From Ancylonema sp. (taxonomy: Eukaryota): a stretch of DNA of 64,000 nucleotides. The stretch spans positions 1 to 64,000 of the forward strand of contig JBFLGF010000046.1 of the NCBI GenBank assembly GCA_050230475.1. Reading direction: 5' to 3'. Shown piece by piece: positions 255 to 61,768 of this stretch (its first letter is position 1; every line of letters starts with the position of its first letter). The notes under the pieces were generated by a model. The model saw only the letters and a list, made by a program, of their open reading frames with translations. It made no database searches and was not told the DNA's origin. The translations under genes were made by a program, and so were the position numbers.

Positions 255-4042
<3,788 letters not shown>

Positions 4043-4424
4043 GAGTGAATTTTTTGAAGGCTTTGATTAGTTTTTTGGGGGAGGGAGGGGGTTGTTGGCC
4101 GGGATGTATATAGGACGAGCAAAAGGGAATGTTTTTAGTGTTGCAGAGTTGGTTGTAAAAAGTAGCGTGAGGGTGCGATACCATGTGTACATAAATCCCC
4201 CATGGGACATCGGATACAGTTGGATGGGACCAAAGCCTTAGCAAGTATAGCTTGTCTATGTTGTTGTAAATTGAATGAGTAGTACTTCTGGCATTACAGC
4301 GTGGTTGCAAATTATCATCACGCAAATGTTGTGTTTTGGAATGACGGGTGTCCTTCGATGTTTGTCTTTCTCCTTCATGGGTGTGTGACACAACTTGTGT
4401 CACGCACATAGAAGAGCATGCGTA

Positions 4425-5253
4425 TAGTGCTCCCTCGATGTGACTAACCTCTTTACAAGGACAACCTCGATATAAGGACGGTTTGTTTGAACTTTTGTCA
4501 AACCAATACAAGATCGCCCTCAATATAAGCATAACGACTCATTATTTGAAGCAAAAGTAATTTGGAAATTTGTTATCGAACGCCCTTTACTGTGAATAGA
4601 ACGCTATTTCTCGCAGATTACGATGTATCGAAATCTATGAAAATCTAGATTACTCATGACAACACTTCAAACTCTCTTGATCGTTTTCCAGTCCGTTTGT
4701 TATGCCACATTAAAGTTGTTGGTGACAATCTTGTAATCTATTTCCAATCGCGAAATTTTACAAAAAAAAATGGATTATATTGTATGTTGGAATGTATAAA
4801 CTTTGTGTATTTCATTTCTGATTTACAATTCGGAAATAGTGAAGTTCTCTTTTTAACAAAAACTTGTGTGTCTTGCCTACCCAAAAACGGGTACATGTTG
4901 TTCATTGGTCCCGCTGCCCATTTGTTTACTCCATGTTCAAACAAGTATGCGAGTATTTTGTTGGTTAAAAAAATTGAATACAATTTGCTAGTCGCCATGT
5001 ATTGGTCTCATTACGCACTTGTATAACTTGCATCACAATACACTCGCTGAATATATCATATTCAGTAGGATGATGATCTTAAGGCAACTTACTCGAGGCA
5101 ACATGTAAACAACAAATCTGCTTATTCACTTACGAGGACACACATTCCAAATTCTATCAGTAAGTGTCTTCATACAGTGTATGAGAACACCTCGATGTAA
5201 TGATAACGACAATTTATTTTTATTTTTTCATGTCCTTGTATTGAGGAGCATTG
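4425..5253. mobile_element. Tc1/mariner (pogo-like) non-autonomous element, family A, degenerate
   Basis: Ends TA|TAGTGCTCCCTCGAT and ATTGAGGAGCATTG|TA. The interior (catgtattggtctcat...gcacttgtata...cgctgaat...aaggcaacttact) is shared with 14230-14930, 41312-41927 and 47174-47683. Confidence 0.75.
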
Positions 5254-5292
5254 TACGTAGTTTGGCTGCACAAAAAATGTACGTATTGAGTA

Positions 5293-7368
5293 CATAGTTG
5301 CACGGACCGGGGTCCCGAGGTCCCGACTCCGGACTGGAGTCCGTCCTTTTGGGTCCAAAATCCGGACCGGCTGTTCAGGGTAATATCGGTTTTTGCCGGT
5401 TTTAAGGTGTCTTCCGTGGAGAAAAAATCCGGAAGTATATTTTGCGCGAATAAAATTACATGGCACATCTTATAATTTTTTCAAAAAAAATATTAGACCT
5501 ATAATATATGTAATTAAATCCTGCGATGCATCATCGTATATTGCGTGATTCACCACTTTCGAAGAATATCACTTGGGAAAATGCTCTAGGTCATTTGAAA
5601 TGGTTATAAGTACTCCATATTTTAGATGTTCCATAGGTTACAATGTAATGGTGAAATAACACTCATATGAGGCTCAAAAAAATGTGAGGAAGGGGCACCG
5701 TATCATGAAATTAAATAAAATTAGAAACACCTATAGCAAACATCATCTTTCATCGTGGAAATTCAGTCCACGCTCACAACCTTGTATTCAAACTTCTTTC
5801 CACCGTACAAATACATTTCTCACTTCTCACTTTCCTATTCTACATGAATTAATGGGTACCTTCCCTATCTATAACTTACTTACTTCATCAAAATCTATCC
5901 TTGCCTACAACTCCATACTTCTATGAAACGATATAAAAAAAACATTACGATTTTTTTCCTATTTTTAATCCCACAACACTCTTCACTAAATGGTCATAGG
6001 TAGTTGACCGGGCTTATGTCATGTGCATCATGTAGTAGGGGTAGCCATGTGCGTGTCATTGACCCCGTAGAGGTGGCACTAGGGTGCATTCGGTAGTCAG
6101 ATGTACGGTTGCACATGACTAGTATGTTACGTACGCAAAGCGGTCGAAACCGTCAAACCGCGCTTGAGTGCATTGTTGTAGTCACTATATAAAACGACGC
6201 ATTTGGTCGTCCACATTATTGAAAATATTCAGAACCCTTGTCGTTGTCTCCGTGTGTTTCGCAATCCCCCAGTTTATTCGTGCACGTCATGATGGTCTGT
6301 GAGTAGGCAATTTTCTATAAGTTTGATTTGCCCCCGAGTGAGGGTACGGTCGGCTAGGATGGCCTCGGTACAACAACGGCCGAGGGCGACCGTTGCAACA
6401 TTTCATGTGTTTTCCGTGGAGAAAAAAATCGGGGAGTATTTTTTTCGCGAATAAAAATATAATTCACATCTTATAAAATTGTCAAAAAAAAAGTTAGACC
6501 TATCAAATAAGTCATCAAAACCTGCAATGCATAAGTGTAAATAGCGTTTCTCACCACTTTCGAAAGATATCACTTGGGAAAATGCTTTAGGTCATTTGGA
6601 ATGGTTATAAGTACTCCACATTTTTCATTTTCCATAGGTTACAGTGTCATGCAGAAATGATGCTCATGTGAGGCTCAAAAAAATGTGATGAATGGGCACC
6701 GTCTCATGAAATTAAATAAATTCAGAATCACCTATATCAAACATCATCCTGGATTATATTCCACGCTCACAACCTTGTATTCAAACTCATCTCCGCCTTA
6801 CAAATACGTTTCTCACTTCTCACTTTCCTATTCCTATATACTTCTATGAAACGAAAAAAAAAGCATTACGGCTTTAAACCCACAATTTTTATTATATTTT
6901 TACACCCATAACACTCATCACTGTCTACACCACCTTTATTAACTCCCTCTCCTCACTTCCCACCCCTCACTTGTCACTCCTCAATGATCTTTCCTCATTC
7001 GAATAACACACATATATCGTCATCCCCTATGATTGTATGCTATCTCAGATGGTGAGTTTTGTTGCCAAAATTTCAGCCATTTTGTCAATTTTGAATTTCA
7101 CCATCTCATCAATGGACGGTTGGATATGAAGATGCTATTTTATTTTATTTCTTTTTTTAATTTTGCTACAACTTTGCAAGCCACAAATGACACATGCATA
7201 TCACACGTGTGAGTTACAAAAAAAAAATGAAGCCCCATGACCTTTTTTCCCACGGAAAATTTGCCTCGCAAAAAAACCCTAAAAGTTCCCCGGTCCGACC
7301 ATGTCCCGACTCGGGATCCGGTCCGACCGCGGTCCCAAAAATCAATGTCGCCGGTCCGTGCAAATATG
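5293..7368. mobile_element. hAT-like non-autonomous element with an internal ~0.55-kb duplication
   Basis: Inverted termini CATAGTTGCACGGACCGG and CCGGTCCGTGCAAATATG, with GGTCC/CGGAC subterminal repeats. 5411-5985 is repeated at about 6411-6920. The terminus matches the TSD-bearing element at 44576, but no TSD is visible here. Confidence 0.6.
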
Positions 7369-9873: not shown

Positions 9874-10541
9874 GTCCACAAGTCCTTAGTCGAATGGGCT
9901 GACTTGAAGTTTCGATTAAAACCGAGGGCTCAGATTGCCTGGCGGGCATGTCCTTTCGGCGACTCCCACGGTGCGGGCAGCATCGAGCGTGTGCGATGAA
10001 TTTGTGCCTGACTCCCCTGCTTTGCGCGAGTGAATCCATACGCATATGATCCACGCATCCTGCATAATGTAATGAATGTCATCTCAGAAGACGGCTGCCA
10101 ACCATAGCAGACTACGACGCTGGATTACGATATTGACTGATCTTTGATTTTTTAAGTATTTGTAGGGAGTCATTTCCGACCCTGCCGCCCGTAATCCTAT
10201 ATGTGTTTGGCCTGAAGGTGAGCCCTTCTCCGAGTTCCATCTCTCGTTATTTAGAAGCGGTCAGTTTTGCGAAATACCCTTACAGGAGTCCTCTTCGGCT
10301 TTATCGAATTCTGAGAACGAATTTTCTGTTGGAGAAGAACACCTTTGGCGAAGTTTTTTTCAAATCGCATTCTGTGTGATTGCGAATTTTTGCCGAAATC
10401 ATATTTGGCACTTATTGAGCGCGGGGCACAATACAGTTGACTATCAATATAGTAACAATTTGAGTCATTCCGGAAGTCCACTGAATGCTCAATACACATG
10501 CATGCTCAATATTGCAGGGCGTCTCTACATCATTTTCAACC

Positions 10542-12966
10542 ATGCTTCTCGCGTCCATACTTCGACTGCTTTTGTAAGTCTATATTCCCGGTCAGTGCAT
10601 ACTGATTCCGTTTTATTGTAAGTGGTAGAGGTTATTCGACTGTCGCTGGAATCAATTTCATCTGAATTTGTGATGTCTTTATGTAATACATATAAAATTG
10701 CTTAAGCTTTTGCAGCCTTGGTAGCAATCGTATTTATGATTCTGTCGCGATCGTTTGATCACCTTTTGACTCCTATTCCTCGACTGTACTTTCTTCACAG
10801 CGTTTTTTTCGCTTACGTGATTCCTGCTTACAAGTGTTACAAGGCCGTGGAGCGCTCAAAGCTTGACACTGCTGAGTTGCGCAACTGGTGTCAGTACTGG
10901 TGAGTGAAGAAAGCCGTGAAAATGATCGCGATTTCAAAGTAATATTCCTTCGAAGTATTCTGAGCTGTCTGACTCGTTTACTTTACTGTTTTCGGTGTAT
11001 TAATCTGTCGTGTCTTTCAACAGGTTGATCATCGCCATTTTGACAGCAGTGGAGAGGTTTGTGGAGCCGATTCTGTGTTGGTAAGCTGCTTCCATCTTTA
11101 AAGCTATTCCCTGCTCTGGTTGTGCCAGATGCAGCCATCTTCTCAAAGGACTGGCGGCTGACACATATCATGGTCACATCATATCATATTCTGGTGTAGT
11201 CACCGAACAAATTCGAGAATTTCAACAGATATTTCAAGCGAAGTCAGCAAAATGCTTGTGTTTCCTATGAATTGTCATGCTTTACTGGAATGATGCATTG
11301 GCTCGTACTTTCCATCCTCCATCCTCCTCCGCCTACACATCATACGCCATCATGATGTGTAGGCGTATTTGTTTTGATGAGATAAATATATGATGTGATA
11401 AATATTGCGGAGGGCTTACGGGCGGACGGCCGGGAGATGTTCTCTGGCTTGGTATATGCTTCATGAACTTCCCACCAAGGGCTTCAACCATATATGCATG
11501 TCATGTATTTGTCAGTCTAGAAGTTCGTTTCTTTGTGGCTTGATGCGGAATAATGTCGCCAATGCAGAGTACCTCCATTGAGGATTTATTGAGTGACCTG
11601 GAATGTCAATTTCTCACGTGAGGGACAGGTATAAGGACACGGAAGATGAACAACCTTGAACTAATTCCATCTAGGTCAGGATTCGGGTAGGATCAGGTGG
11701 ATTGGGTGGTGTATTGAGGGTAGTCTTATTGTTGTGTATTTATTTTCTTGAACCTACAGGGTCCCTCTGTACTATGAAGCGAAGTTGGCATTTGTCATCT
11801 ACCTTTGGTGTCCCAAGACCGAGGTAAGCTACTATCCACCGTAGTTCCAGTGTAGTCCTAATAGTTTCATTCATGTAGTAATACTACACTTCTGTCTAAA
11901 TTCTGGCTCACCCAGTAGTTACCACATAGCATGACGGTGGTATCAAGTCCATCTTCTTGCAAATTATCATAGTCTTTGTTTTATAATCGGAGTTGGTAAT
12001 GTGATTCTCAGACCAACTGACGTCTATGTATGACAACGAGCCTAGGGGCGAAGCTAGGGCAACAAAATTATTCTGCAGGTTGTGTGTTGGTTGTTGGCTG
12101 CCATTATTTGATGCCTTCCATGCTCACATGTTGCTTCACGGTCCCGTACTCTTCTCATAGCCCTCGCGATCTCCTAGGTAGAGCCTTCCGGAAGTCCACT
12201 GATTTGTCTATGAGATTAATTTGTTTGTTTGCAGGGCACTGCATATGTGTATGAAACGTTTGTGAATCCCGTAGTGGCCCAGCAGGAGCCTGAAGTCGAT
12301 CGCTGGGTTGTGAAGCTGTCTGGTGAAGTCAAGGCAAAGGCTAAGCAGTACTGGAACCATGCGCGGGCCTTTGGAGAGGAGAGTATCACAAGAATGCTTC
12401 GCTACGCCAACATGGAGAGCCAGGGTAGACAAAATGTAAGTTGGACTTCTGTAGAACATATGTTTGTAGAGCGTTTTTGTTGGATCACCAAAACCTGTTC
12501 GCTCAGCTTTAAAAAAAAAAAAAAAACCAATTACTATGTTCTAGTAACTGTGCATGTAAAAGTAGTACCACTACTGCTGCTGGTACTTCAGTTCCACAGA
12601 AGCATCTGCATCATCAGCTAGAATTCGACCAGCAGCAGGTTGTGTGGTTGTTTTGCGACATAAAACACTTTGCAATTCTGTGTCGGGACCTTAGTAAGAC
12701 ATAATGATCATACACGTTGTTTGCTAGCGCACATGGCGATTTGTTCTGCTGTTCAAGTAACTTGTCTCAATGATCCCGACGATATGCATATGTCGCGTCT
12801 GGATCTGCAGGTGGTGCAGGAACCCATGCCTATGGTTGAGGAGCCAGCAGAAGAGACTGAGAGCGAAGCGGAATACCACGTGGTGGAGCAGCCGGATGTC
12901 ATTCCGCATTCTTCGCCTCGAAGTTGGTCTGTTGGTCCTTCTTTTCTGCGGTTCCGAGGAAGATGA
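10542..12966 (+). CDS. HVA22/REEP (TB2/DP1) family protein, HVA22g/h/i-like
   Basis: Exons 10542-10573, 10801-10899, 11024-11080, 11760-11823, 12235-12435 and 12811-12966. Motifs PAYKCYKAVE...LRNWCQYWLIIAILTAVERF...WVPLYYEAKLAFVIYLWCPKTEGTAYVYETF. The 3' exon structure is less certain. Confidence 0.9.
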
Positions 12967-14229
12967 AAGGCTCCCATGTTACCGTCTGATTTTCGTACAG
13001 TGTATACAATTCAACTTTCTTGAGCGTAAGTTCTTATACATACTTTGACTGGTGCAGTTGAACCGTATTTCATCCACCTACATATGCCTGTCCATAGATT
13101 GTTAAGGAGGGCAGAATAGCTTGGGCCTACTAATAATGTTGGAAGTTGTAAAAGTTCTTGTACATATATCAGAATGTAGTAAGACAAATGTTGCTCAGGA
13201 GTGTGTATACATGTAGGAGAGACGAGAGACCTCCACAGATGTCTATACCCAAGGCATTGCTTCCTTGGCGTTGCTGACACCTTCTCGTAGCAACTGACCT
13301 AGTGATTTGGTTAAGTTGGAGTTTTCGCACCACGTGATGGAGAGGCCAGATTCTATGAAGCTTGCTTCGAAGTCAGGAGATGGAGTTGGGAGGTTGTTAC
13401 AATTAAGCTAACACACGGACCGCCTAAGATGAGGTGTCCGATAAATAATTGTGTGGAATGATCAAAGAAAAGTAGAGACATGATAAAAATAAATATTCAT
13501 ACGTGTGATTCATCTCGTGTTATCTGCTTACTCGGGAGACATCTCAAACAGTAGACTAAATGTACATAGTAAACAAAATATACAAATACATCTGGAGTAA
13601 AGTACAATTGTGCCTCCCAAAACAAATAATTATGCCATTATCATAAGTGTAAGAATAGTAATTTGTGGTTTAATTTGGGTGGACACGTGCCACATAGAAC
13701 TCTCACTTGTGTGGACCACCTTGCACATGTTTTTCTTTCAAAAAGGTATACATTACACTAATGACAATTGACGAAAAACTGATAATTATATTCATTACAG
13801 GGGTAAATATTAGATTTAGTGATCTAGAGAGATTCGATGATCTTTGCAATCCTAGGAGTGTGTTTTTTTGCAAGATGGAAGTATGTGGAGAGAGATGTTG
13901 ATGATGATGTGGGTGCTGTGGTGATTTATGATACCAACTAAGGTTGTTGGTAATGGGTAAAACCGGGGTAGACCTCTATCCAACATTTCACAACATGAAG
14001 CTGAGATGAGATGAAGAAGGGATGCCTACTGAGGAATATCGAAAGGTGCAAAAACGAAAACAATTCAACGGGGGTAATAAAACAAAACAAAAAACTTGTG
14101 GGGGGGAGAAATGAACTAAAAATCAAGATAAAACGGCACTCTGAATAAATACGAATTCTTTCAGTAAAACGGATTCGTTTCCGAATGTCTTTACGATATA
14201 TGGAAATCGAGATAAATATATAGCCCAAA

Positions 14230-14930: not shown

Positions 14931-15681
14931 TAGAAGGTTTGGAAAATTAAGCGTTATTCTAGTATAAGTTGTCTAAAGGAATGCTCTTGGGGGGGAGAAA
15001 GTGTGTTCCTTTAGAGAGGTTATTTACTTATGCAGGTATGGTTCCTAGCGATTTTGGTATCGGGACCGGAATTTGGTATTCCTTTAGAGAGTATTCTTTT
15101 AAAAATAATATTGTATATGGAGCATGACAATAGTTAATTCGAGAATGGTTCTTTATCATACAAAACGATTGGTTTTGTATGATTCTCTCCCACACCTCCG
15201 CGAGGGTCAATAACATCGGCGGAGTTGTAGCTCTCGGCCCTGCTAGAGTTTGCACAACCTTGGTGTTTCATTACTAGCCCTTACTTTAAGGGAGATTGAA
15301 AGATTGATTAATCATCGTGCGTTGAGATAGGGTTCCGTGCTTCATTTATGGTCTTCTCTTCTCTCTTCCCTCTTTCGTGTAGGGGAAAATGGAAGGTTGT
15401 GAAAAAAAAGAAGGGGGGAACATAACCAGGCTGTCGTTATACTGAGGGTCGATATGTCGAAGGTTACTGTAACAAAGTAACCAACCAATGTCTGACAAGT
15501 TTGGTACACTGCACCTGACTGAATATCTGTGACGTAGAACTCAGTGCAACCAAAGCGCTGCTAGGACTTCTGATCTGTTGAGCTCCACAACGAAAGTCCT
15601 TGCTGTACGCCCAAAGTTTGCGCGAACAGCGCAATTTTTCAGACACCGTGTGACAGTTTCAGAGTGTTGGAAGGGTGAACG

Positions 15682-18600
15682 ATGGTTGCACCGGCAGCTG
15701 CAATTGCAGTGGTGGAAGGGGTTGAAAAGGGAGAGTTGGAATCAAAAGTTTTACTGGCTATTAGGTACACGAGGGGCAAGCACGAGCTTCTAGATCAGGT
15801 ACCTGCGTTCGCGCTTAACTTTGTACCTTTTCAAACCTTGGAGAACAAATTTAAAGGTAATCCAGGTGTCGTGACGTACTGCATTGAAGTCTTGTAATGA
15901 CGGAAAGGATCTGCATGCCTGGGGGGGAAGGAATCTTTTCATCACACTTGTAAAATTGAAGATAGCAATTCAGTGTGATCCGTGATTTAGTGTGAGTCCG
16001 TGTGATCCGTATTATTATTACTTGTGGTGCGTGACCTTTGCGAGGGTTTGTATATCTTCACAGGATCATGACAAGCTGAGGTGGCTGTGCAGAGAAAATT
16101 ACCACATGAAAGTACGTATTTGGATGTCCCAGATTCTCCTGCTGCTTGGTGCGTACATCTTTCTGCCATTTTTCCTCATAATGAGAATGAGAGCGAAAAT
16201 CTCAGCAGTCTTCTTCGACAAATATAAAATCGCAGTGTAGCGCAGGAATTGTTGTAATGCGGATTGTATGATCGATCGATAGTTACAGTGCGGAATTCTG
16301 AGAAGGGGACGATGGACGTTGCATAACAAGTTTTATGTGATATCATATGTGTCTGCAGGACGGCCATCCGAGATATGGTGGTCCGCGGTGCGCCAGCCAT
16401 TGCAATCGCTGCTGCCTTGGCTCTTGCGGTGGAACTTGCTCAGAAACCTCCTAGTGGCAGTGCCACTGAGGCTGCTCAAGTCATTGCTGAGCGTCTTGAC
16501 TATTTGGTTTCCAGGTACCCATGCTTCCCACTTGTTTCTGCGTGAGATGGAGATGATGTCTGATCCTTACGCATGAGTCCAGGCACGTTATGTCGTTCAG
16601 CGAGTCGATTTGCAGATATTGGAGGATGTAATTTGTGGATGTTCTTTTCTTTTCCGTACATACTCAATTAGAGATGAAATTAAATTCAATCAAAATAATA
16701 ATGAAAAGATGAAAGCCTACAACGTCCATATGTTGGTGCACTATGAGACCGGTTTCACTTCCTCAAATTCACCAACGCACACATATTCATTCTTCCCTTC
16801 TTCTCGCACCCTCTCCAGTCGCCCTACCGCAGTGAACCTGGGAGATGCAGCCGCGAAATTGAAAGGAGCGACCAGCAAAGCAGCTGATCTGAAGCAGGCA
16901 ACAGCGGATTCCGTTGTGGAGGTAAATCATCCCGCCTCTCACTCAATACACTCCACCCTCTCTACGGGCACACTCTTTGTTGGTCATACTCTGGTGCCTT
17001 TTTGGTGCCTTTGTGTGCCTCTACAGGGGGTTGTTGCGGAGTATGTGGGATATCTCGGTTTTGTTGGCCAAATTTGATGCCTTCGTAGAGGGTGTGCCTC
17101 AAGTCGAGGGTGCCTATATAGAGGGATGAGTGTGCCACGGGGTTAAGGTTCAGAGAAATAATTTATGCTTCCTCCCCACCTCTGCCAGGCGTACATCACT
17201 TTGGCAGAGGCCATGCTTGCTGATGACGTGGAGGCCAACGTGTCGATTGGAGCTTATGGAGCTGCAGCCATCCTTGGTGCGGTCCAGGGGAAAAAAACAG
17301 AAGGGCTGCACGTGCTCACACACTGCAACACAGGCAGGTGGGATTCCTAGACCCGTGAAGGCCTTTAATAGTTGTACTCATTTGAAAAAAAGGAAAAAAT
17401 AAAAGAGGAAAAACGGATAATTTGCCAAAAAAAACAAATGTTGGTTTTTTCCAGTGTATATTTATTTTCCTTGCTGCCATTTTCATTTTCTCTGCAGTCT
17501 TGCCACTGCCGGCTTTGGAACCGCTCTGGGTGTCATCCGCTCTCTGTATGCGCAAGGCAAGCTGGAGTCGGCTTTCTGCACCGAAACCCGGCCTTTCAAC
17601 CAGGTACATAATCTTTATCATTTGTATTAAAAAAAGTGGATAAATGAACTACTAAAAAAAAAAAAAAGTTGTCGCCTCCCTCGCCATATACCCACCGCAT
17701 GCATTCTCCTCCCTTCCCCCCCCCAGGGTTCTCGCCTCACCGCCTTCGAGTTAGTTCACGACGGCATCCCCGCCACGCTCATCGCTGACTCAGCAGCAGC
17801 TGCCCTCATGGCGGCTGGGAAGGTGGACGCCATCGTGGTCGGAGCAGACAGAATCGCAGCAAATGGTAAATCAACAGCTCTGACCCTGCAATCAATCCAA
17901 AGCTGTACAGATTCTTACCATCATCCGTATGGTGTCTATCCTTTCTCACTGTATTCCACATCAATCTTATGGTATTTGTCCTTCCCATCATTTGCCCCAC
18001 CCTCATCACTGTCATCCTTTTCATCCCTCTCATCCTTCACATCATCCTATCACCCGTCCTATGATCCGCACCATTTGCATGGTATCCGTCACACGACCCT
18101 CCTCACCATCCCATCTCTCCCCCATCTTTACTCTATGTCACACATCCCTCCACCCTTCCACCCCTCTCACCCATCCTCCCCTCCCCCCCTCCCCCTCCCC
18201 CCCCCCCCCCCCCCAGGCGACACCGCCAACAAGATTGGCACCTACTCCCTGTCCGTCTCCGCCTTCCACCACGGCATCCCCTTCTTTGTGGCCGCCCCCC
18301 TCACCTCCACCGACCTGGGGACGGCCACGGGAGAGGACATTGTGATTGAGGAGAGGGACCCCAGGGAGCTCACGCACGCGCTGGGGGGGGCGGGCCCTCA
18401 GGTCGCGCCGGATGGCATACAGGTGTTCAATCCGGCGTTTGACGTCACGCCCGCGAATCTCATCACGGGGATCATAACAGACAAGGTGAGGCGGGGGGGG
18501 GGGTGTATCGTCGGTTTTTTTTTTTTTTTTTTTTTTTAAAGTGCATGTAAAATGCGTCAATTCTGATTCTGGAAACTTGGTCGTCCGAGGTACTTTTCTT

Positions 18601-21600
18601 GAGCCCTAAAATGGCCTTCGTTCTGTCGCGTCGAAAATTAATAACAGGAGGTGACCAAAAACCAAGTGGTAAAGACAGCACGTTCCCATGTCAACTACCT
18701 ACCCTCTCTCTCCCTCCCCCCCCCCCCCCCCCCCCCTCCCCCTCCCCCCAGGGACTCATCACCAAAGTAGACACGGAAGACACGTTCGACATCCCCCACT
18801 TCATCTCCACCCTCCAACAACAGCCCCCATCCTCCCCCTCCCACCCCCCCACCCCCTGCCACCTCCTCTCCAAGCTGGGCCTCAAGAACCTCCTGGCCTG
18901 CCTCCCCCACCCCCCCAACCGCCACAGCAGCATGAGGAAGACGGAGCCCCACCCCCTCCCCAGTACCTCCACAGTAGAAACCCCAGAGGTCCTGGCTGCC
19001 AGGGGGTTCAGGCCGCTGACCGAGGGCCTGGTGGCGGGGTACCTTGGGGGGAAACCGGAGCTGGCGGCGCGGTTGGGGGGGGGGGTGGAGGAGTGGAAGG
19101 TGGAGGAGGTGGGGGATGGGAACTTGAACTATGTGTACATCGTCAAGGGGCCGTCCTCCAGCCTGGTGCTGAAACAGGTGGGTAGAAAAGGCGACTCACT
19201 TCCCCGACTTACCACCCTGAACCACTACCCCCCCACACCTTTTTTTTCTTTTCCTCTCTTCCTTTTTGAATCGCGTTGGTATTATGTCATTCTCCCTTAC
19301 CAAAACAAACAGGAAAATAAGAACAAAAACAAAGAAAAAGCAAAAAAAACAAAAAAAACAACAAAAAACAAAAAACAAAAAAACAAAAAAAAAAACTTAC
19401 ATCCTTTTTTCCACCCCTACCCCCCCCCTTTCAGGCCCTCCCCTACCTCCGCTGCGTAGGCGAGTCCTGGCCCATGAAACTAGCGCGAGCCTACTTCGAA
19501 GTCAACGTACTCCGGGCTCACGGCGCCCTCTGTCCCGACCACACCCCCCCCGTCTACTTCCACGACCACCCCATGGCCCTCACAGTGATGGAGTTCCTCC
19601 CCCCCCCCCACATCATCCTGCGCAAGGGGCTCATCGGTGGGATCATCTACCCGCACCTGGCGGAACACGTGTCGGATTACATGAGCAAGACGCTGTTCCA
19701 TACTTCGCTGCTGGCCATGAATACGGAGCAGCATAAGGCGGCTGGTGGGGGGGGGGTACCCGTTTTGGTGAAGTTTTGATGGGGGTTCCCCATCAAAACT
19801 TCACCTTCTTCATCCTAATTAATCTCTTCTTTCTTTCTTCCTCTCCTTCTACCCACCCACCCCACCTTCTACTTCTTCTTCTTCTTCTTCTTCTTTGTCT
19901 TCTTCTTCTTCTTCTTCCTCTCCTTCTCCTCCTCCTCCTCTTCTTCCTTCTCCTTCTCCATCTCCATTTCCTTCTCCTCCCCCTCCTCCTTCTCCTCCTC
20001 CTTCCTTTTCTTCTCTCTTAAGTGATCCACTACTCGCCCCCTTTTCAGTTGCCAAGTACTGCGGAAACGTGGACCTCTGTCGTCTGACGGAGATGGTGAT
20101 CTTCACGGACCCTTACCGCGAATCCTCTTTCAACCGATGGGATTCCCCAGAACTGGACGAGGATGCAAAGGCACTGAGGGAGGACGACGGGTGCAAGCTC
20201 GCCATCGCAGACCTAAAGAAAAAGTAAGGGGAGGGAGTGTTGGGTAGCCTCCCTCACGACCCCCCCCCCCCTGCAGCAGGAGGAAGGGGGGGAACGTGCT
20301 TACTAAAAGAACACGGTTCTGGAGAACGCCAGCTGTCAATGTGTGCCCCTGACGTCTTTTCCACGACCTATCACATACAGTTGTTGCAGAGATTGAGGGA
20401 AGTGGTCGCTCTCTGTGTGCGTGCCTCTCTAAAAGTAAGGCTGAACCTCCGTTGACTTTCGAACATTGACCCGGACGTTGACTCGGCCGTTGACTTTCCA
20501 CCCCCAGGTTCTGCGAGCAATCCCAGGCGTTGATCCACGGCGATCTCCACACGGGTTCCATCCTGGTCACCCCCGATTCCACGTGGGTGATCGACCCCGA
20601 GTTCGGTTTCTACGGCCCCATGGGGTTTGACGGGGGGGCGTTTGTGGGCAACCTGATGCTGGCCTACTTCAGTCAGGAGGGGCACTGTACTGAACAGGAT
20701 ACGCGGCAGGTGGGGGGGGGGCTTGGGGTGGGGGGTGGGGGGTAGGGCTGTGGCCATTGGTGTAGGCACCCTTTTGGTGGTAGGGTGTTTGGGTGTGGGT
20801 TTAATGGAGGGATAGAGGGGGAGGGAGAGGGGGAGGGAGAGGGGGAGGAAGAGGGGGAGGGAGAGGAAGAGGGGGAGGGAGAGGAAGAGGGGGAGGGAGA
20901 GGAAGAGGGGGAGGGAGAGGAGAATAAGAGGGGGAGGGGGAAGGTGCGTGACAGGAAATTGTATTGTTTCCGTTCTCATATTCTAGTGGCTTAAGGGAGG
21001 GTGAAGTAATGAAGAGGGGTGGCGTGTGTGTTTGGTCGAATCGCGTGTTCGCAGGAATACCGTCAGTGGAGTTTGACGACGCTGATGGCGACTTGGGATT
21101 TGTTTATCACCAAATTTCTGAAGCTTTGGGACGAAAACGCAACCTTTTCCGCGGGAGACGCGTATCCCGCGGACCTCTACGACTCTCCCACCCTCTTGAA
21201 GGCGGCACAGGATAAGTTTGTGAGGGACCTTTATTTGGACACGGTTGGGTTTGCTGCCGCGAAAATGATTCGGTGAGCGGGTACACTTAAAAATCCGATG
21301 TAAGAAACCTATGAAAAGCCGGTTCAAATGCTTCATATAACTTACTGATTTTATTCTATAACTCACAAGTTGAGGGAACAGACAAAAATCGATGATACAT
21401 TATTCTCACACCAAGTAGTTTCTTATACCAATGTCCTTCATACACTTACACCTCTACATAAGAAACTTCGTTGTAAGAAACTCTTCTCCATCTGAGAAAT
21501 TATTTTTCGGGTGTTTTTTTGGCGTTTCATACTCAGAATGTTGATATGTTAGAAACATTCGTTGTAAGATTTTTTATATATATAAAAAAGTAGGATTCTC

Positions 21601-21910
21601 ATATCGGGGTTGGAGTGTATGGAGGTTTGAGAGTACCACGAAGAGGAGGTACTACCAAGGTCGTTGTGTGTCTTCGGTGGCGTTGTGCGTTTCAATCCTG
21701 AATCTACGTGGAAGTTGGGTTTTGGGATGTGGTTGGTTTTGCAGGCGGATAGTGGGCATTGCTCATGTGGAGGACCTCGAATCCATTAAAGACAGAGAGA
21801 TAAGAATCAAGTGTGAACGGAAGGCTATCAACTTCGGTAAAATGCTTCTGAAAGAGAGGCACGAGATCCCTACAATGGCTGCTGTTGTGGCTGCTTTGCG
21901 GTCCGAGTAA
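15682..21910 (+). CDS. Fused methylthioribose-1-phosphate isomerase (MtnA/MTI) - methylthioribose kinase (MtnK/MTK), 863 aa
   Basis: Fourteen GT-AG exons: 15682-15798, 16093-16148, 16359-16514, 16819-16921, 17189-17337, 17498-17603, 17727-17865, 18217-18485, 18752-19177, 19435-19744, 20049-20223, 20508-20709, 21055-21272, 21745-21910 (2592 nt, phases consistent). Isomerase motifs: [71 protein letters not shown]. Kinase motifs: [52 protein letters not shown]. Confidence 0.9.
19870..20000. repeat. Intronic (CTT/CCT)n polypyrimidine low-complexity tract
   Basis: CTT and CCT triplet runs in intron 19745-20048. Confidence 0.85.
20815..20920. repeat. Intronic purine minisatellite (GAGGGGGAGGGAGAGGAA)n
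   Basis: About 4-5 copies of an 18-bp unit in intron 20710-21054. Confidence 0.85.
21284..21617. mobile_element. TA-flanked MITE (family B) in the last intron of the MTI-MTK gene
   Basis: TA|CACTTAAAAATCCGATGTAAGAA ... TTCTCATATCGGGGTTGGAGTG|TA. Related to 30681-30843. Confidence 0.75.
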
Positions 21911-22747
21911 TTCATTCGAATTTCTTGTGTTTGGTCACTAGCATTGGTCGGACATCAATGCCAATGTTATTCAATGTCATTGGCTTATTGGCAATATTGC
22001 GATGTAAGATGGAATTTACGTGGGGTTGTCCATTCTCCTCGTGTTGTGGGTCTACTGTCGTGTACAAGTACTGTGCACACTACTTAGTTAGTGGTACCTC
22101 AACGTCTATATTTGGCAACAGCTATATATTATTGATGGTCTCCTCCCTTCTATTTGTGCATGACACTGATTACTACCTAATAGGTAGTACCTACATTGTG
22201 GCTAGTATACGTGTACTTCGATGAAACTCAGTTTTTCAAAGAGGGGCCTTGCGAGTGGAAAGCATGATTGGGCGACGTTACCAATCCATGCACTACACAT
22301 AGGCTGGCATAGAGGCATTCATGGAATCAGGAGGTCATAGCCCCATATTTCCTGCGTCAAGCAGTTTGTAGGAAATTTAGAACTTCGTTATGCGTGGACA
22401 GTCATTTAGATTGTAGGGCCACGTACGACTCATGTTCCTATCCGGGTAGGATACACACTCCAGGTTCAGATCCCTGTCGAATTGGCGTTTTGTGACCTTT
22501 TTGGGTGCACTCACAATATGTGCTGCAGTGCAAGTGTTGTCTACTTCACACAACCCATGGGAACCAAAGTGAGGTAGATAGCCGAAAAGCTTCTGATCAC
22601 ACACATTTTGTCCAAACAAAAACATAGTTGTTATCGACAAACAATTGAGTGATGTTGACCATGACAACCATGGTGCATAGAGTTCCTCAAGAGTGCTAGA
22701 TTCATGGTTACATCGTGTTTGAGGCACTTATTCAACATACCATACTG

Positions 22748-42045: not shown

Positions 42046-45000
42046 TGTTGGAATTAATTGTAAAATCGATGAGTCAGTAATTGTCGGTCTAAACAAATAG
42101 TCGGAATAATTAGTTAAGTAATCATTTTTTGATAATGACCGGGACATCGATGACTATACATTTTAGATTTGTGACTACGATCTGCGGCGCCGCACTATCG
42201 CGGATAAGATTGTCGATATTTTTGAAGAGATCTTGAGGATTAGATAAAGGTAGCAATTTTGACATTGAGAAACTAATTACTCTGAACATCTTGACATCCT
42301 TGCAAACTCCTGCACTCGTGTTGAATGCTCTACGTAATTCCCCTATGTATCCTGCGCATCGATAGCCCGGATCGTATTGTGGAAGTCCCTGCCCACAGAG
42401 AGGCAAGAAGCGCGATAAATATGCCTGTCCATAGAGAGACAGAAGTTGAGTTCATGTCAATAGAGAGACAGAAGAGCGAGGGACAAATCCGTGTCATGAA
42501 AGAAGAAGAGATAAAGAGTTAAGTCGAACATGGTATCAGAGCGAGGCAAATGATCATGAGTAACCCAACAAGGGATGTCAAAATTGATTGTGAATGCATG
42601 ACATTGCAAATGGAACTGAGCAACGAAGTCTTGGTTGCTAAGGGAGAACCGATCCACCCAGAGGAGTGGTTGTCAGATTCAGGAGCTTCGCATCACCTAT
42701 GTACGAACCTGGATCTGTTCAGCCATATTGGCGAGCCAAAAGAAAGAATAAGAGTGCAGACAGTCGGTGTCACGAGACTCGTCACGCAATCTAGAAGTGT
42801 GCTCATAGAGGTGGATGGAGAGAAAGGAAAGGAATTTATGCACCTGCATGAAGTTCAGTACCCCCCCGGGCTCAGCGTGAATCTGCTTTCTATGTAGAGA
42901 TTAGCAATGAAGAACGTGTTCCCTTTCTATCAGGAAATAAAAGGAAAAGTAGTTCTCCGAAGACAAGAGAATGGAAACAAGAAAGAACAGGTGGCGCTGA
43001 TGACTATTGATCAGAATGGATGCTCCACACTCGATTGCAAGGTGATGAAACCAGAGTACGGAAAAGATGACGCGCTACAAATTTTTAGTGGAGCGCCTTC
43101 ATGAACGAATGGGATGTGCGGGACAGGGCGCAATTGACCGAATATTCAAGGAAGGATTAGTGAGAGGCATCAAAGGACTTAAATTGGGAAGTGTCGGAGA
43201 CTGCAATATTTGCAAGCTGGGAAAGTTACCTCGACAGTCATTCGCCAAGGTCATTCGGGATCCAAGCGTCTGTCATCCTCTCGATATGATCTTCGTCGAC
43301 CTAGCCGGACCGAATAGACCTGCAACATTAGGGGGTGCGAGCTATGACATGATGATCATCGATGCTTTCACCCGACGGACCTAAGTAACACTCCTGAAGA
43401 AGAAGTCCGATGCCGCAGAGAAATTGGAGGCCTGGCTTCCAGTAGTCGAAAGACGGTGTGAGAGAAAACTAAAAATCATACGAACAGACAAAGGGGGAGA
43501 GTTCACCTCGAACGCAATTCAGGCGTGGTTTAAGGGAAAAGGAATCGAGCACCACATTACGTCATCATATTCACCTAAGCAGAACGGGATGGTCGAACGT
43601 CAAAACCGAACATTGCAAGAGAAAACGAGGAGCATGATGCTCGAGAGCGGCCTTCCAGGAAGTCTATGGGGTGAACTGATGCTGACTGCAAACGTGCTTC
43701 GCAACATGACACCTACAACGTTGCGAAATAAAACTCCAATAGAACTGTGGTCAGGAAAGAAGCCATCCATAGAACGACTCCGAAAAATCGGCTGCATAGT
43801 GTACTGTCCGATCCAAAAGCAGTTCAGAGGTGGGAAATTCAAAGCAGTTGCATGGGAAGGAGTGCAGGTGGGCTACTCTACTTAAAGTCCAGACTATCGA
43901 GTATGGGACCCGGAGACCAGAAATGTTTACAACATTGGGGGACCAGCTTTCAACGAGGAGGTTGAGCAAGGGTGGTGGAAGAAAGACTCATCGATAAAAC
44001 TACTGATCCCCGATGAAGAAGAAGAGGATTTGGAGTTCGATGGTGACGCAGCTGCTGAGGAAGTGCAGCCACCGACGCCTTCCATCGGATCACCAGAAGG
44101 GAATCAGGACCTGTCGCCAACCCGGTTAGAAGGAGAGGAAATTCCACGTAGAGGAGGAATAGGACCGTAGAGATACGTTGATGAGCCAGGAGTGAGAAAC
44201 ATCGGAGGAGGGACTAGGGGAGTAGAGGGAACAACTGCACCCCGGCGGAGTGAGCGACGAAATCTTGGGGTGCCACCTGAAAGACTTGGAGACGCAATGA
44301 TGTTGGCGATGATGTCTCCCGACCCAAACTCGCCACAGTCAATCCGAGAGGCATTAAACAACAGCGATAGCCATCTGTGGAAAGCAACAATCAACATCGA
44401 ACTTGAATCATTTGACGAAAATCGAGTCTTCACGATTGTGGACAGGCCCAAGAACGGGAAGAGTATAGTGGGGTCAAGATGGGTGCTCAGAATCAAGCGA
44501 GCGGTGGACAGGAAGGTGGACAAGTATAAAGCAAGACTAGTAGCAAAAGGCTTCACACAGAAGGAGGGGGTGAACCATAGTTGCACCAATACGTGGCTGC
44601 CGTTTGCATACGGCCCATACATGACCCTTGCCGTATGTAGTTTTCCATACGGCTAGTTTTTTATATGTAATTATAATTATTGTGCTGGAAACTTTCGGTT
44701 CACATTTTCCAATCCGAAAATTATGCAAAGTCATTTTTTTTAAAATTTTAATGGTTAATTATATCCATCCATTATATTTGAAGTTATTTTAACTAGTTAA
44801 TTTATCTTCAATATTCTGAGAAATGATGATAAATGAAAATTCTTATCTCAATCTCCGCCTCCTTTTCATTTCATATTCCATCTACTTTATTCCATTTTTA
44901 TTATCTATTGCTCTCATGCTTGGTGTGAGAGGGAATAAACCAATTTGGCTCAACATTAAATACGAACATTAAGTAAGTACCTATACTCTCCTTCAAGTAT

Positions 45001-47168
45001 CTATCCAAACCCCATACGAATAGCATGTAGCATAGGTACATTTATGAAAATGCCGATCTAAGGGACACAGTTAGCCGCCGACTCGTTGACATACACCCAC
45101 GCCTATACTTTTAATGTAGGCACAACGCTTAGGTGTGCCACGTACGGTTACGGGTTGATCAGTTCTTGAACATCCATATCCGTGAAATTAAATATTCAAT
45201 ATGAAAATTTTGCCCGAACGTATGTGTAGCCGAATGGAAGCGCCACGTATGGCTGGCAAAAGGTATGGCATACGGCGTATGTAGTTTTTTTTGCCGTATG
45301 GGTGCAACTATGGGGTGAACTACACGGCACCAACCCTGCGATTTGAGTCCCTCCGTGCTTTAATCGCCTATGCGGCGAGTGAGGAGCTGTACATGGAGCA
45401 GATGGACGTGTCAACAACATTTATATATGCAGACATTGATGAGGAAATTTACATGGAGATCCCTTAGGGGATGGAGGGGTACGGGAGTGGAAAGGTCATG
45501 CTGCTCCACAAGAGCATCTACGGGCTGAAGCAGGCTTCGAGGTTGTGGAACCACCATCTCGACAAGGTTCTTGGGGAGTTGGAATATCATCGACTCACCT
45601 CAGACTTCGGGGTGTACATCAAAGGAAAGGGGGAGAACAGAGTATTGACGGGGGTGTACGTCGACGACATCATCATGTTGGCCAAGCTGATGCAGATACT
45701 GAGTGGATTGAAAGGAATTTGCAATTGGAGTTCAAAATGAAGGATTTGGGAGCTGCAAACTTCATTCTGGGCATGGAAATCCGACAACAGGAGAATGGTG
45801 ATATCTTTTCAGTGCACGAGAAGTATGCAGGAGACGTCTTGAGAAAGTACAACATGTATGATAGCAAGGCAGTGAGTACACCTCTGGAAGTGGGGAGTAG
45901 TTTTGGAAAAGAAAATTGTCCAACAACGGTGGAGGAACAACTAGAAATGGCAGACGTCCCCTACCGTGCAGCCATCGGAAGCCTCATCTATATCTCGCAA
46001 GGAACGCGACCGGACACGGCGGAAGCCGTGAGCTGCATGGGGAGTTTCACTCAAAATCCACGAAAAGTGCATTGGGACGCAGTGAAGCGAGTACTTCGAT
46101 ATCTGAAAGGCACAATGGGACAAAGCATCCTGTATAAGCGAGGAGCATCGACAAACTTCGTGGGATTCTCGGATGCAAGCCATCTGAACTGCCCCGACAC
46201 ACTGCGAGGACGAGCGGGCTATGTGTTCATGTGTGCAGGAGGGGCTATCAGATGGAAGTCAAAGAATGTGGGGAACACCACGCTGTCATCATGTGAGACT
46301 GAATATTTGGCACTATCAATGGCAGCACAAGAGGCAGCTTTTCTGAGCAATCTGCAAGCACAACTTCGAGGGAAAAGGATCCCAGAGAACAAAGAGGACA
46401 TGGAGACTATAACTATCATGACAGAGAGTCAGTCTGCTAAGGACTTGGTGGGCAATCCTGTGTTTCATTCAAGAAGCAAGCACATCCTGAATAAGTACCA
46501 CTTCATCAAGGACAGGGTGGAACTGGGACAGATCCAACTGGAGTTCGTTTACAGCGAGGACAATGGAGCAGACATGCTGACAAAACATGCAAGTGTTGGG
46601 GTGATGGACAGGAACAAGAAAGAGATTGGAATGATGTAGAGACATGAATTGAGAACATTCTACGATTCTACAATTAGGGGGTGTATTGGAATTAATTGTA
46701 AAATCGATGAGTTAGTCATTGTCGGTATAAACAAATAGTCGGAATAATTAGTTAAGTCATCATTTTTTGATAATGACCGGGACATCGATGACTAAACATT
46801 TTAGATTTGTGACTACGATCTGCGGCGCCGCACTATCGCGGATAAGATTGCCGATATTTTTAAAATAGATATTGAGGATTAGATGAAGGTAGCAATTTTG
46901 ACATTGAGAACCTAATTACTTTGAACATCTTGACATCCTTGCAAACACCTGCACTCGTGTTGAATGCTCTACGTAATTCGCCTATGTATCGTGCGCATCG
47001 ATAGCCCGGATCGTATTGTGGAAGTCCCTGCCCACAGAGAGGCAGAAGCGCGATAAATATGCTTGTCCACAGAGAGACAAAAGTTGAGTTCATGTCAATA
47101 GAGAGACAGAAGAGCGAGGGACAAATCCATGTCATGAAAGAAGAAGAGATAAAGAGTAAATTCGAACA
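42046..47168 (+). mobile_element. Ty1/Copia LTR retrotransposon, gag-less, pol pseudogenised
   Basis: 485-bp LTRs at 42046-42530 and 46684-47168 (roughly 95% identical by eye), TSD AAGCA, PBS TGGTATCAGAGC at 42531, PPT at about 46672-46683. Domains in Copia order: PR (WLSDSGASHH), IN (HERMG..CNIC, RTDKGGEF, QNGMVER), RT (YKARLVAKG, YGLKQAS, YVDD), RNase H (SSCETEY, ADMLTK). Several stops and frameshifts. Confidence 0.97.
44576..45312. mobile_element. hAT-type MITE inserted in the Copia RT
   Basis: TIR CATAGTTGCACC / GGTGCAACTATG, perfect 8-bp TSD GGGTGAAC (44568-44575 and 45313-45320), CATACGG/CCGTATG subterminal repeats. The RT frame resumes after removal. Confidence 0.92.
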
Positions 47169-60200: not shown

Positions 60201-61768
60201 CGAATCACTGATGCTGTTGAAACAGCATAAGTGATTCCAACATGTCTGCTGGACCAAACATTCGACAACAACAACAAGGTGGTAGTTTGGATATGGAAAG
60301 CAGACCTTCTGTTGTGCCACGCAGAGTAATTTTTGAAGTCTTCATTGATTTTGTCCATGGTGTACTGCAGCTCTGTTTCAAGGGAGACGCCAGCCTCTTT
60401 TGCCACGAATCTGCGCGCACCGACGGACATAATTAAACACTGGAGCACTGGAACTTTCCCAAATCAATCACGCTACATCATCCGATCTTAGAGCAAGACA
60501 CGGAGTTGCCACATTGTGACTTTATAGCAAGATAGACTACCTTTCTCAATTCTAGAGATTACTGACGCATTCTCAACAATAGACAGACAAAATGTGGCTA
60601 ACGCTCAACAGAAATGTGGCAGCCTATACCTCCGATAGTCCCATCCATGGACATTCCTTGTGTCTTTGGAGAGGAGCATCTTCAGAAGCTTGAGTTCTCG
60701 TTGCAAGTCGACCAGTTTTTGAGTCACCAACCACTTGCGGTGATACCATGCGGAGTAAGACTTGGGGTTGTACTCCAGAGCAACCTCAGACTGGAAAGAA
60801 GAGGAGAAGATGGAGATGGACATGAACGATTGGACGTCAGGAAGGAGCGTTGGAAGGAGGTGAAAGACATTGTGGGATTCTCTCCATGACAGTGCGCACT
60901 TATCGCCTGCTGAGAGTAGCGTTACACCACATACCACATTTTTGTACTCATCCAAGTGTTGATATAGGATATGCGAGAGAGCAAGAGAGGCAAACACAAA
61001 GAGAGCGAGAGAGCAAGTTTATAGCCAGGAATACATTTGTAGGTCAGTCAGTTGAGCAACTGAAATTGGTGACTTGATTCACACACTAATCCATGATGTC
61101 TTTGCTATTTTCTTCAGATTTGCTCCTACTGGGGGAGGGAGGAGTGGCTGCTATGTTGCTCTCACAATTCTGAGTTCCTCGTGAACAAGCTTCTTCTTGC
61201 CTTCATCGTCGCTAGCCTCAGCCAACTTGAGCTTAAAAGCGCACTTGCGGTAGTTCCAAACGGTGTACACGTCTGGATTCTTGGCCAGCAATTTGGCACT
61301 TAGGTGAATAGCTTCTGGAGTGTAGCTGCCATTGGAATCGCGATACAAACCATCGAATTTCATCAGTGGAGTGGAAATCAAAAGGCCGAGGCGGACAGGC
61401 ATCAATCTCTAACTTGCTTGAAATCTAGAAACGGCGTACACCGTCAATCAATTTTTAGCTCCCTCGGCAGCCTGTGGAATGTAAAAACTGCCAATGTCAT
61501 TCATGAATTTGAAGCATCTACTAAATCTTCAAAAAACAAATCCATCCAAGAAAACATCGTTGCCTGAGTACGTTGTGTGGCTTCAGTAACTGCCACCACT
61601 TTCTGTAACATCCCTGATCCCGCATTACCATTTCTCCCTGTGATTTTGTAATACCGCAGCTTGCAACTTAGCGTATGCTGCGACTTTTTCTCTGTTGGCC
61701 GAATTCTTTTGTGGGTCGGCGTCTCCTACAGTCTCTTCCTGGACACTGACACGCGGCCTCCCATGCAT
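57236..61768 (-). CDS. RGTA: Rab geranylgeranyltransferase (GGTase-II) alpha subunit with PFTA repeats, Ig-like insert and LRRs
   Basis: MHGRPR start. Exons 61768-61629, 61325-61166, 60790-60630, 60410-60306, an unresolved segment, then about 59786-59042, 58818-58653, 58468-58255 and 57666-57236. Motifs NPDVYTVWNYR, NPKSYSAWYHRKW, DTRNVHGWDYRR, NYSAWHNR, QSAWIYYLWLL, LRQLDLSDNRI. Confidence 0.9.
57767..58119. mobile_element. CCGT-terminal MITE in the last RGTA intron
   Basis: TA|CCGTAGAAGCCAAAGATAATGCG ... CGCGTTATCTCTGGCTGGTACGG|TG, with many (T/C)GCGCCA internal repeats. Confidence 0.75.
59784..59837. repeat. (AGGCTGGGG)6 tandem repeat at an RGTA splice acceptor
   Basis: Six 9-bp copies read directly. 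Confidence 0.9.

What the first reader, a model, noticed from the sequence alone, without database searches (positions are those of the whole stretch)
15682..21910. Single gene fusing two consecutive methionine-salvage (Yang cycle) enzymes: MTR-1-P isomerase and MTR kinase
Seen: the isomerase C-terminus ([18 protein letters not shown]) and the kinase N-terminus (FRPLTE...[15 protein letters not shown]) sit in the same exon (18752-19177), in one frame with no stop. All 14 exons splice in phase to 863 aa with the family signature motifs of both domains present. Established: MtnK makes MTR-1-P, the substrate of MtnA, and angiosperms such as Arabidopsis encode them separately (MTK1, MTI1). I recall an MtnA-MtnK fusion being reported in the ciliate Tetrahymena, which needs verifying, and I do not know of one in streptophytes. 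Inference: a lineage-specific bifunctional enzyme that could channel MTR-1-P; both halves look plant-type, suggesting an independent fusion.
Basis: partly seen in the sequence, partly recalled or inferred. Interest (0 to 1): 0.88.

Follow-up and report, generated by a model that had tools for sequence, protein, structure and literature searches.

The report
Ancient fused methionine-salvage enzyme MtnAK
This gene joins two consecutive methionine-recycling enzymes in one reading frame; the same fusion occurs in green algae, mosses, ferns and Ginkgo, so it is likely the ancestral plant state that conifers and flowering plants later split, not a new invention of this lineage.

Summary
Fourteen exons with GT-AG introns splice to 863 aa without a stop, and the isomerase end, a 66-aa linker and the kinase start share exon 9. 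A relative's protein aligns across that whole exon in the same frame. The 'lineage-specific fusion' reading fails. MtnAK was described in 2009 in Tetrahymena and noted in Ostreococcus, Micromonas and Phaeodactylum (PMC2759508). With a fused Riccia query, 118 of the 120 best hits carry both domains, isomerase first: chlorophytes, charophytes, liverworts, a moss, lycophytes, ferns and Ginkgo. Conifers, Welwitschia and angiosperms have separate proteins that nest inside the fused clade in both domain trees. So fused is likely ancestral and seed plants split it. The two trees disagree on Ginkgo (AU p=0.004 and 0.007), which suggests duplication followed by reciprocal domain loss. I found this history in none of ten paper searches. 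Channelling is untested; the linker is variable and low-confidence in a model of a relative. Two look-ups of earlier scan notes showed no such fusion.

The parts
15682..21910 (+). MtnAK gene, 14 exons, 863 aa: N-terminal MTR-1-P isomerase, linker, C-terminal MTR kinase
   Evidence: splice model; 1241 bits against a profile of fused relatives
15682..18802 (+). Isomerase (MtnA / MTI1 type, IF-2B fold) coding part, exons 1-8 and the first 51 nt of exon 9; residues 1-382
   Evidence: exon 8: PF01008, TIGR00512; 60-70% identity to the isomerase halves of streptophyte fused proteins; motifs
17321..17335 (+). HCNTG motif (residues 189-193); its Cys is the catalytic base of MtnA as I recall it, not from a call
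   Evidence: the motif is conserved in solved MtnA structures aligned to a relative
17841..17852 (+). GADR motif (residues 268-271); its Asp is the catalytic acid of MtnA as I recall it
18752..19177 (+). Exon 9: holds the isomerase end, the linker and the kinase start in one frame
18803..19000 (+). 66-aa Pro/Ser/Thr-rich linker, among the longest seen; it shares a short hydrophobic element with two unnamed close relatives only
19001..21910 (+). MTR kinase (MtnK / MTK1 type, APH fold) coding part, end of exon 9 to exon 14; residues 449-863
   Evidence: TIGR01767; PF01636 on exon 12; 52-63% identity to streptophyte kinase halves
19112..19129 (+). G-loop GxGNxN (residues 486-491)
   Evidence: motif defined in PMC2194712
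20536..20604 (+). HGD catalytic loop (residue 679 on) and IDxEF Mg-binding motif (residue 697 on), exon 12
   Evidence: PMC2194712

Best explanation
This is one 14-exon reading frame that joins MTR-1-phosphate isomerase and MTR kinase; it likely encodes the ordinary bifunctional MtnAK of a streptophyte alga, inherited from the green-plant ancestor. The C-terminal kinase domain would phosphorylate 5-methylthioribose with ATP-Mg to MTR-1-P. The N-terminal isomerase domain would convert that to methylthioribulose-1-P for methionine salvage. Both steps are inferred from intact motifs and family membership, not assayed. The two domains likely fold independently on a flexible tether, so the gain is fixed 1:1 co-expression and proximity rather than a sealed tunnel (inferred). 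The separate MTI1 and MTK1 of conifers and flowering plants are likely derived by fission of this fused gene (inferred from trees).
For: Shown in the sequence: one frame, all splice sites canonical; all four kinase motifs of PMC2194712 and seven isomerase motifs present. Distribution: 118 of the 120 listed hits of a Riccia fused query have both domains, isomerase first in all 118; the other two are kinase-kinase tandems. Named carriers include Gonium, Chlorella, Chloropicon, Closterium, Netrium, Spirogloea, Chara, Marchantia, Ceratodon, Selaginella, Diphasiastrum, Psilotum, Pteridium, Ceratopteris, Ginkgo and the haptophyte Diacronema. Several have transcript-assembly style names (Netrium, Psilotum, Pteridium), and the Tetrahymena fusion has ESTs from both ends of one clone (PMC2759508). 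Trees: stand-alone seed-plant isomerases nest within fused vascular-plant ones (97/86 and 100/97) and stand-alone kinases within fused land-plant ones (99/98). In a concatenated tree the window's protein lies among streptophyte algae and land plants (97/98), outside land plants. Tether: the spacer between fixed anchors is 65-125 residues in 31 of 33 named fused proteins (2 lacked my anchor) and 119 here. The window's linker resembles none of those 31 clearly (best 7 of 300 shuffles). An AlphaFold2 model of the Selaginella protein has mean pLDDT 84, pTM 0.56 and linker pLDDT under 50.
Against: No transcript, read or protein evidence for this organism. No enzyme assay of any MtnAK appeared in the papers I read. 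The modelled protein was the Selaginella relative, not this one, with only 16 aligned sequences, so a low pTM may reflect a shallow alignment. One search was limited to 451-1437 aa and one search listed only 120 of 7919 hits to a Ginkgo query, so extra stand-alone copies in algae, mosses or ferns are not excluded. Two Selaginella records give the same locus as a 450-aa kinase only, so annotations differ. Residue 711 is Gly where all 82 relatives (of 118) matching my pattern have V, I, L or T; it lies in a run of seven G and may be a base-call error or a real change.
Confidence: 0.88

Rival explanations
1. A lineage-specific, independent fusion of two formerly separate plant genes.
For: Fusions of these two enzymes do recur: reverse-order kinase-isomerase single ORFs in 7 of 45 bacterial loci by a strict motif test, and one isomerase-kinase fusion, P0394, whose halves group with the bacterial-type side of both trees. 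The linker here is unusual in length.
Against: The same order and architecture run through every sampled non-seed green-plant group and Ginkgo. Both halves of the window's protein have fused proteins as nearest rows.
Confidence: 0.02
2. Two neighbouring genes joined by an assembly or reading error in the C-rich linker.
For: Exon 9 has 12 runs of five or more C or G. There is one in-frame ATG at 18932 upstream of the kinase start. No reads were available.
Against: The frame is open and homologous end to end to an independent sequence; the other two frames are not homologous or contain stops; linker GC3 is 0.86, like the flanking exons. Reading through intron 8 would stop before the last isomerase segment.
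Confidence: 0.03
3. The fused domains dock on each other and channel MTR-1-P directly from kinase to isomerase.
For: Consecutive reactions; the fusion has been kept from chlorophytes to ferns in one order and arose again in bacteria. A short hydrophobic element in this linker is conserved in two close relatives and could be a docking element.
Against: Linker length and sequence vary widely. Seed plants do without the fusion. The Arabidopsis kinase site is largely shielded from solvent (PMC2194712), so product release needs opening; this is my inference.
Confidence: 0.12

Closest known systems
MtnAK of Tetrahymena thermophila (XP_001031773; PMC2759508), also noted there in Ostreococcus tauri, Micromonas and Phaeodactylum tricornutum
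   Same: Isomerase N-terminal, kinase C-terminal, one protein (779 aa there, 863 aa here); same two consecutive steps of methionine salvage.
   Different: Streptophyte host, not treated in that paper; longer linker. Common origin with the ciliate protein is not shown: I held no named ciliate sequence, and the grouping of all eukaryote-type fused kinases has support 49/41 only.
Fused IF-2B + APH proteins of streptophytes in public annotations (e.g. Selaginella XP_024521805.1, Closterium, Marchantia, Ceratodon, Ginkgo Gb_28479)
   Same: Same architecture; 60-70% identity in the isomerase and 52-63% in the kinase. They are likely orthologues.
   Different: Usually named after one half only or 'hypothetical'. 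The linker is unrelated in sequence and mostly shorter.
Arabidopsis MTK1 (PDB 2PYW; PMC2194712) and MTI1; Bacillus subtilis MtnK (2OLC) and MtnA (2YRF)
   Same: Same motifs and families; these are among the solved structures that best match each half of a close relative.
   Different: Separate polypeptides. None of the 16 PDB sequences matched covers both halves.
Other methionine-salvage fusions: plant DEP1 / MtnBC and ciliate MtnBD (PMC3698126, PMC6079011)
   Same: Fusion of steps of the same pathway.
   Different: Different enzymes. MtnBD gained an extra activity; nothing here suggests that for MtnAK.

Membership tests
MtnAK fusion (PMC2759508) | MtnA domain N-terminal and MtnK domain C-terminal in one ORF | tested here: met
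MtnAK fusion (PMC2759508) | Expressed as one transcript and one protein | not testable with these tools
   No RNA run listed; relatives with transcript-style records are fused
MtnAK fusion (PMC2759508) | Descent from the same fusion event as the ciliate protein | tested here: inconclusive
   Kinase tree support 49/41; isomerase tree unresolved; no named ciliate sequence was held
MTR kinase (TIGR01767; MtnK / MTK1) | G-loop GxGNxN, HGD loop, IDxEF motif, RR motif, W-loop | tested here: met
   Residues 486, 679, 697, 809-810 and 519; definitions in PMC2194712
MTR kinase (TIGR01767; MtnK / MTK1) | Whole-protein score above the curated cut-off (275 bits) | tested here: inconclusive
   Only single exons of this gene were scanned (41, 113 and 96 bits for exons 9, 10, 12); three fused plant relatives pass with 477-507 bits
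MTR-1-P isomerase (TIGR00512; MtnA / MTI1) | IF-2B-family domain with [27 protein letters not shown] and NPAFD motifs; closer to MtnA than to eIF2B or ribose-bisphosphate isomerase | tested here: met
   exon 8 scores 126 bits on TIGR00512 against 55 on TIGR00511 and 32 on an eIF2B-alpha model. The catalytic roles of the Cys and Asp are recalled; a paper search for them gave nothing useful
Both enzyme families | Catalytic activity on MTR and MTR-1-P | not testable with these tools
   needs an assay
Substrate-channelling bifunctional enzymes | Fixed domain interface or tunnel, and kinetic evidence of channelling | not tested

The most novel reading that the evidence does not exclude
Seed plants broke an ancient MtnAK fusion in steps, and Ginkgo keeps the intermediate. 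The fused gene duplicated before the gymnosperm-angiosperm split. One copy lost the isomerase and became MTK1 once. The other copy stayed fused, as in Ginkgo, and lost its now redundant kinase twice, in angiosperms and in conifers plus gnetophytes, giving MTI1. Support: stand-alone kinases of conifers and angiosperms form one clade (99/98) that excludes the Ginkgo fused kinase (AU p=0.004), while the Ginkgo fused isomerase groups with conifers and Welwitschia (100/97) and one clade of all stand-alone isomerases is rejected (AU p=0.007). Limits: it rests on one Ginkgo gene model and 8 stand-alone kinases; the Ginkgo kinase branch is long (0.35) and may be pulled to the root; the tests were chosen after I saw the first trees; no cycad was sampled. 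It predicts a second, stand-alone MTK in Ginkgo.
Probability: 0.45. Interest if true: 0.5.

Novelty: new member of a known kind. Interest (0 to 1): 0.3.

Why it matters
As a single gene it is ordinary: a described fusion, present in many public proteomes. Its value is comparative. The Arabidopsis picture of the Yang cycle, with separate MTK1 and MTI1, appears to be the derived state, while most green lineages use one bifunctional protein that I found assayed in no paper I read. The 2009 paper left the distribution of MtnAK open. The pattern found here gives a candidate case of gene fission by duplication and reciprocal loss, with a living intermediate, and a simple system (fused versus split orthologues) for testing what a fusion of consecutive enzymes buys.

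Tried and rejected
Expression: no RNA run was listed for 15400-22200; this is no evidence either way. No whole genome is held, so other copies in this organism could not be sought. Pfam found nothing on exons 9 and 10 alone; NCBIfam did. Placing the host: the trees put the protein among streptophyte algae without resolving the class; the isomerase alone paired with Closterium (99/97) only in a sparse tree. Single versus several origins of eukaryotic MtnAK: unresolved. Two unnamed short-linker fused proteins (P0396, P0410) fell apart from the green clade in the quick tree and were weakly joined to it in the careful one; I could not name them. Decay of the Ginkgo kinase: 4 changes at otherwise invariant columns against 0 in its isomerase, but Closterium has 7, Spirogloea 5, and Riccia and Calypogeia 4 each, so this is not distinctive. 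Literature: ten searches found MtnAK in three papers (PMC2759508, PMC3698126, PMC6302742) and nothing on land-plant distribution or fission; most subscription journals are not in that library. Earlier scan notes: eight bacterial operon notes and no sequence look-alike; none was used.

Full report
Observation. I rebuilt the gene from the window. Fourteen exons from 15682 to 21910, separated by 13 GT-AG introns, give 2592 nt and 863 residues (93.0 kDa) with no internal stop. Exon 9 (18752-19177) reads in one frame from the last isomerase segment through a 66-residue linker (18803-19000) into the kinase G-loop. Exon 8 matches the MtnA model TIGR00512, and exons 9, 10 and 12 match the MTR kinase model TIGR01767. 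The spliced model scores 1241 bits as one stretch against a profile of 16 fused relatives. All kinase motifs described for Arabidopsis MTK (PMC2194712, passages read) are present, as are seven isomerase motifs. The catalytic roles of the isomerase Cys and Asp are from memory.

Is the junction real? Exon 9 has 12 runs of five or more C or G, no RNA run was listed and no genome is held. The frame is therefore supported by homology. P0381, an unnamed relative, aligns over all 142 residues of exon 9 at 51% identity. The linker alone scores above all 2000 shuffles against P0381 and against P0004, which belong to one 90% cluster and so count as one witness. One oddity remains: Gly711 (20632-20634) lies in a run of seven G where the 82 relatives (of 118) that match my pattern have V, I, L or T.

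What is known. PMC2759508 (I read parts 1-2 of 5 and further passages) named MtnAK in Tetrahymena: 779 aa, isomerase first, ESTs from both ends of one clone. It reports the same fusion in Ostreococcus tauri, two Micromonas and Phaeodactylum, and leaves the distribution unanalysed. PMC3698126 and PMC6302742 (passages) repeat the Tetrahymena case. PMC6079011 (passages) was read for DEP1. The Plant Cell paper on Arabidopsis Yang-cycle enzymes was seen only as a reference line. No supplements were read; a distribution table in one could bear on the novelty claim.

Distribution. Exon 10 searched against longer proteins already returned fused proteins of Riccia and Ceratodon. A whole-length search with the Riccia protein gave 615 hits at E<=1e-100 among proteins of 451-1437 aa; of the 120 listed, 118 carry both domains, isomerase first in all, and two (Turnera, Musa) are kinase-kinase tandems. 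Named carriers span chlorophytes, Closterium, Netrium, Spirogloea, Chara, liverworts, Ceratodon, Selaginella, Diphasiastrum, Psilotum, Pteridium, Ceratopteris, Adiantum, Ginkgo and Diacronema. I read 'Mesen1' as Mesotaenium and 'Chlat1' as Chlorokybus from memory of those prefixes. The ESM Atlas holds two clusters (70 and 214 members, 93-100% eukaryotic) with both Pfam domains. The Ginkgo isomerase half searched against shorter proteins gave 7919 hits; the 120 listed are 321-398 aa with no kinase part, and those with names are seed plants: Cryptomeria, Araucaria, Taxus, Picea, Welwitschia, Amborella and other angiosperms. Stand-alone kinases were seen in Wollemia, Araucaria, Cryptomeria, Taxus and Ipomoea. 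In Cryptomeria and Taxus the two halves lie on contigs of different lengths (781 vs 934 Mb; 949 vs 773 Mb), which suggests different chromosomes. These searches are length-limited and top-120, so stand-alone copies outside seed plants are not excluded; two older Selaginella records give only a 450-aa kinase for the fused locus.

Trees. I picked rows by hand for taxon spread (47 for the isomerase, 50 for the kinase, out of more than 340 proteins held). In the isomerase tree the stand-alone seed-plant proteins nest among fused vascular-plant ones, and fused Ginkgo is sister to Welwitschia plus conifers (100/99). In the kinase tree the stand-alone proteins nest among fused land-plant ones, but conifers and angiosperms join (100/98) with Ginkgo outside. 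With a mixture model on 20 and 23 rows, Ginkgo-plus-conifer kinases are rejected (p-AU 0.004) and one clade of stand-alone isomerases is rejected (p-AU 0.007). The simplest account is a duplication in the seed-plant stem, one loss of the isomerase giving MTK1, and two later losses of the kinase giving MTI1. Against it: one Ginkgo model, few kinases, a long Ginkgo kinase branch (0.35 against 0.085 for its isomerase), tests named after the first trees, and no clear sign of decay in that kinase. Two plain fissions, or one fission with a merged Ginkgo model, remain possible. All three keep 'fused' as ancestral. The window's protein falls among streptophyte algae, outside land plants, without a resolved sister (18 rows). 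The partial Taxus isomerase record starts and ends at positions that match junctions 1 and 8 of this gene, which hints at shared intron positions.

Deep origin. A profile search of 50%-identity representatives added distant, unnamed fused proteins; 26 of the 147 new rows hit both domains. Thirteen eukaryote-type fused kinases form one side of a branch with support 49/41 only (29 rows), and the isomerase tree is unresolved (42 rows). One origin for ciliate, stramenopile and green MtnAK is thus neither shown nor rejected. Fusion has clearly recurred: P0400 has the reverse order, and 7 of 45 bacterial loci found with it are single ORFs by a strict motif test (Lachnospiraceae and Eubacterium MAGs), while 16 more carry the two genes as neighbours.

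Mechanism. Shown: one frame, two complete domains, intact motifs. Inferred: MTR + ATP gives MTR-1-P at the kinase, which the isomerase turns into MTRu-1-P. The spacer between fixed anchors is 119 residues here and 65-125 (median 84) in 31 of 33 named fused proteins, and this linker resembles none of those 31 clearly. An AlphaFold2 model of the Selaginella protein, which has the shortest spacer of the 31, gives two well-predicted domains (mean pLDDT 84), pTM 0.56 and a linker under 50; the Atlas model is similar (pTM 0.60). This fits a flexible tether but, with 16 aligned sequences, does not exclude docking. I favour co-expression and proximity over true channelling.

Verdict. The gene is real and is a new member of a described kind. 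The surprise claimed for it does not stand. What deserves a look is the reverse story, a stepwise fission in seed plants, which I found in none of ten paper searches. Interest 0.3.

Noticed in passing
L001-L007 (about 2900-5450 in each); protein P0400: Reverse-order MtnK-MtnA single ORFs of about 790-830 codons in 7 of 45 loci by a strict motif test, all metagenome-assembled gut-type Clostridia (Lachnospiraceae, Eubacterium). L022 and L028 have ORFs of similar length that failed my kinase motif pattern. PMC2759508 reported the fusion in no bacterial genome.
   Followed up: partly
protein P0394 (unnamed, 766 aa): Isomerase-kinase fusion whose halves group with the bacterial-type side of both trees: likely a further independent fusion.
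   Followed up: partly
proteins P0414, P0423, P0464, P0471, P0456: MTR kinase joined to other domains. By recalled motifs: a HAD enolase-phosphatase (P0414, P0423), a short-chain dehydrogenase (P0464), a nucleosidase (P0471), and an unknown C-terminal part (P0456). Not scanned.
   Followed up: no
proteins P0128 (Turnera), P0135 (Musa): Kinase-kinase tandem models, perhaps merged tandem duplicates.
   Followed up: no
window 18803-19000: The linker holds a short hydrophobic, possibly helical element kept in P0004 and P0381 but in none of 31 other fused proteins; its role is unknown.
   Followed up: partly
window 18217-20709: Third-position GC rises from about 0.2-0.5 in exons 1-4 to 0.82-0.87 in exons 8-10 and 12, then falls; introns there end in long C runs.
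   Followed up: no
window about 10480-12970, + strand: Upstream neighbour looks like an HVA22/TB2/DP1 gene (weak hit on one 30-aa exon, E 0.007, below the Pfam cut-off).
   Followed up: partly
window 43385-46636 (+) and 53327-53800 (-): Copia-type retrotransposon fragments: integrase, RVT_2 and Pol beta-barrel matches.
   Followed up: no
window 57239-61018, - strand: Exons with prenyltransferase alpha repeats and leucine-rich repeats, likely a Rab geranylgeranyltransferase alpha subunit (name recalled from the domain pair).
   Followed up: no
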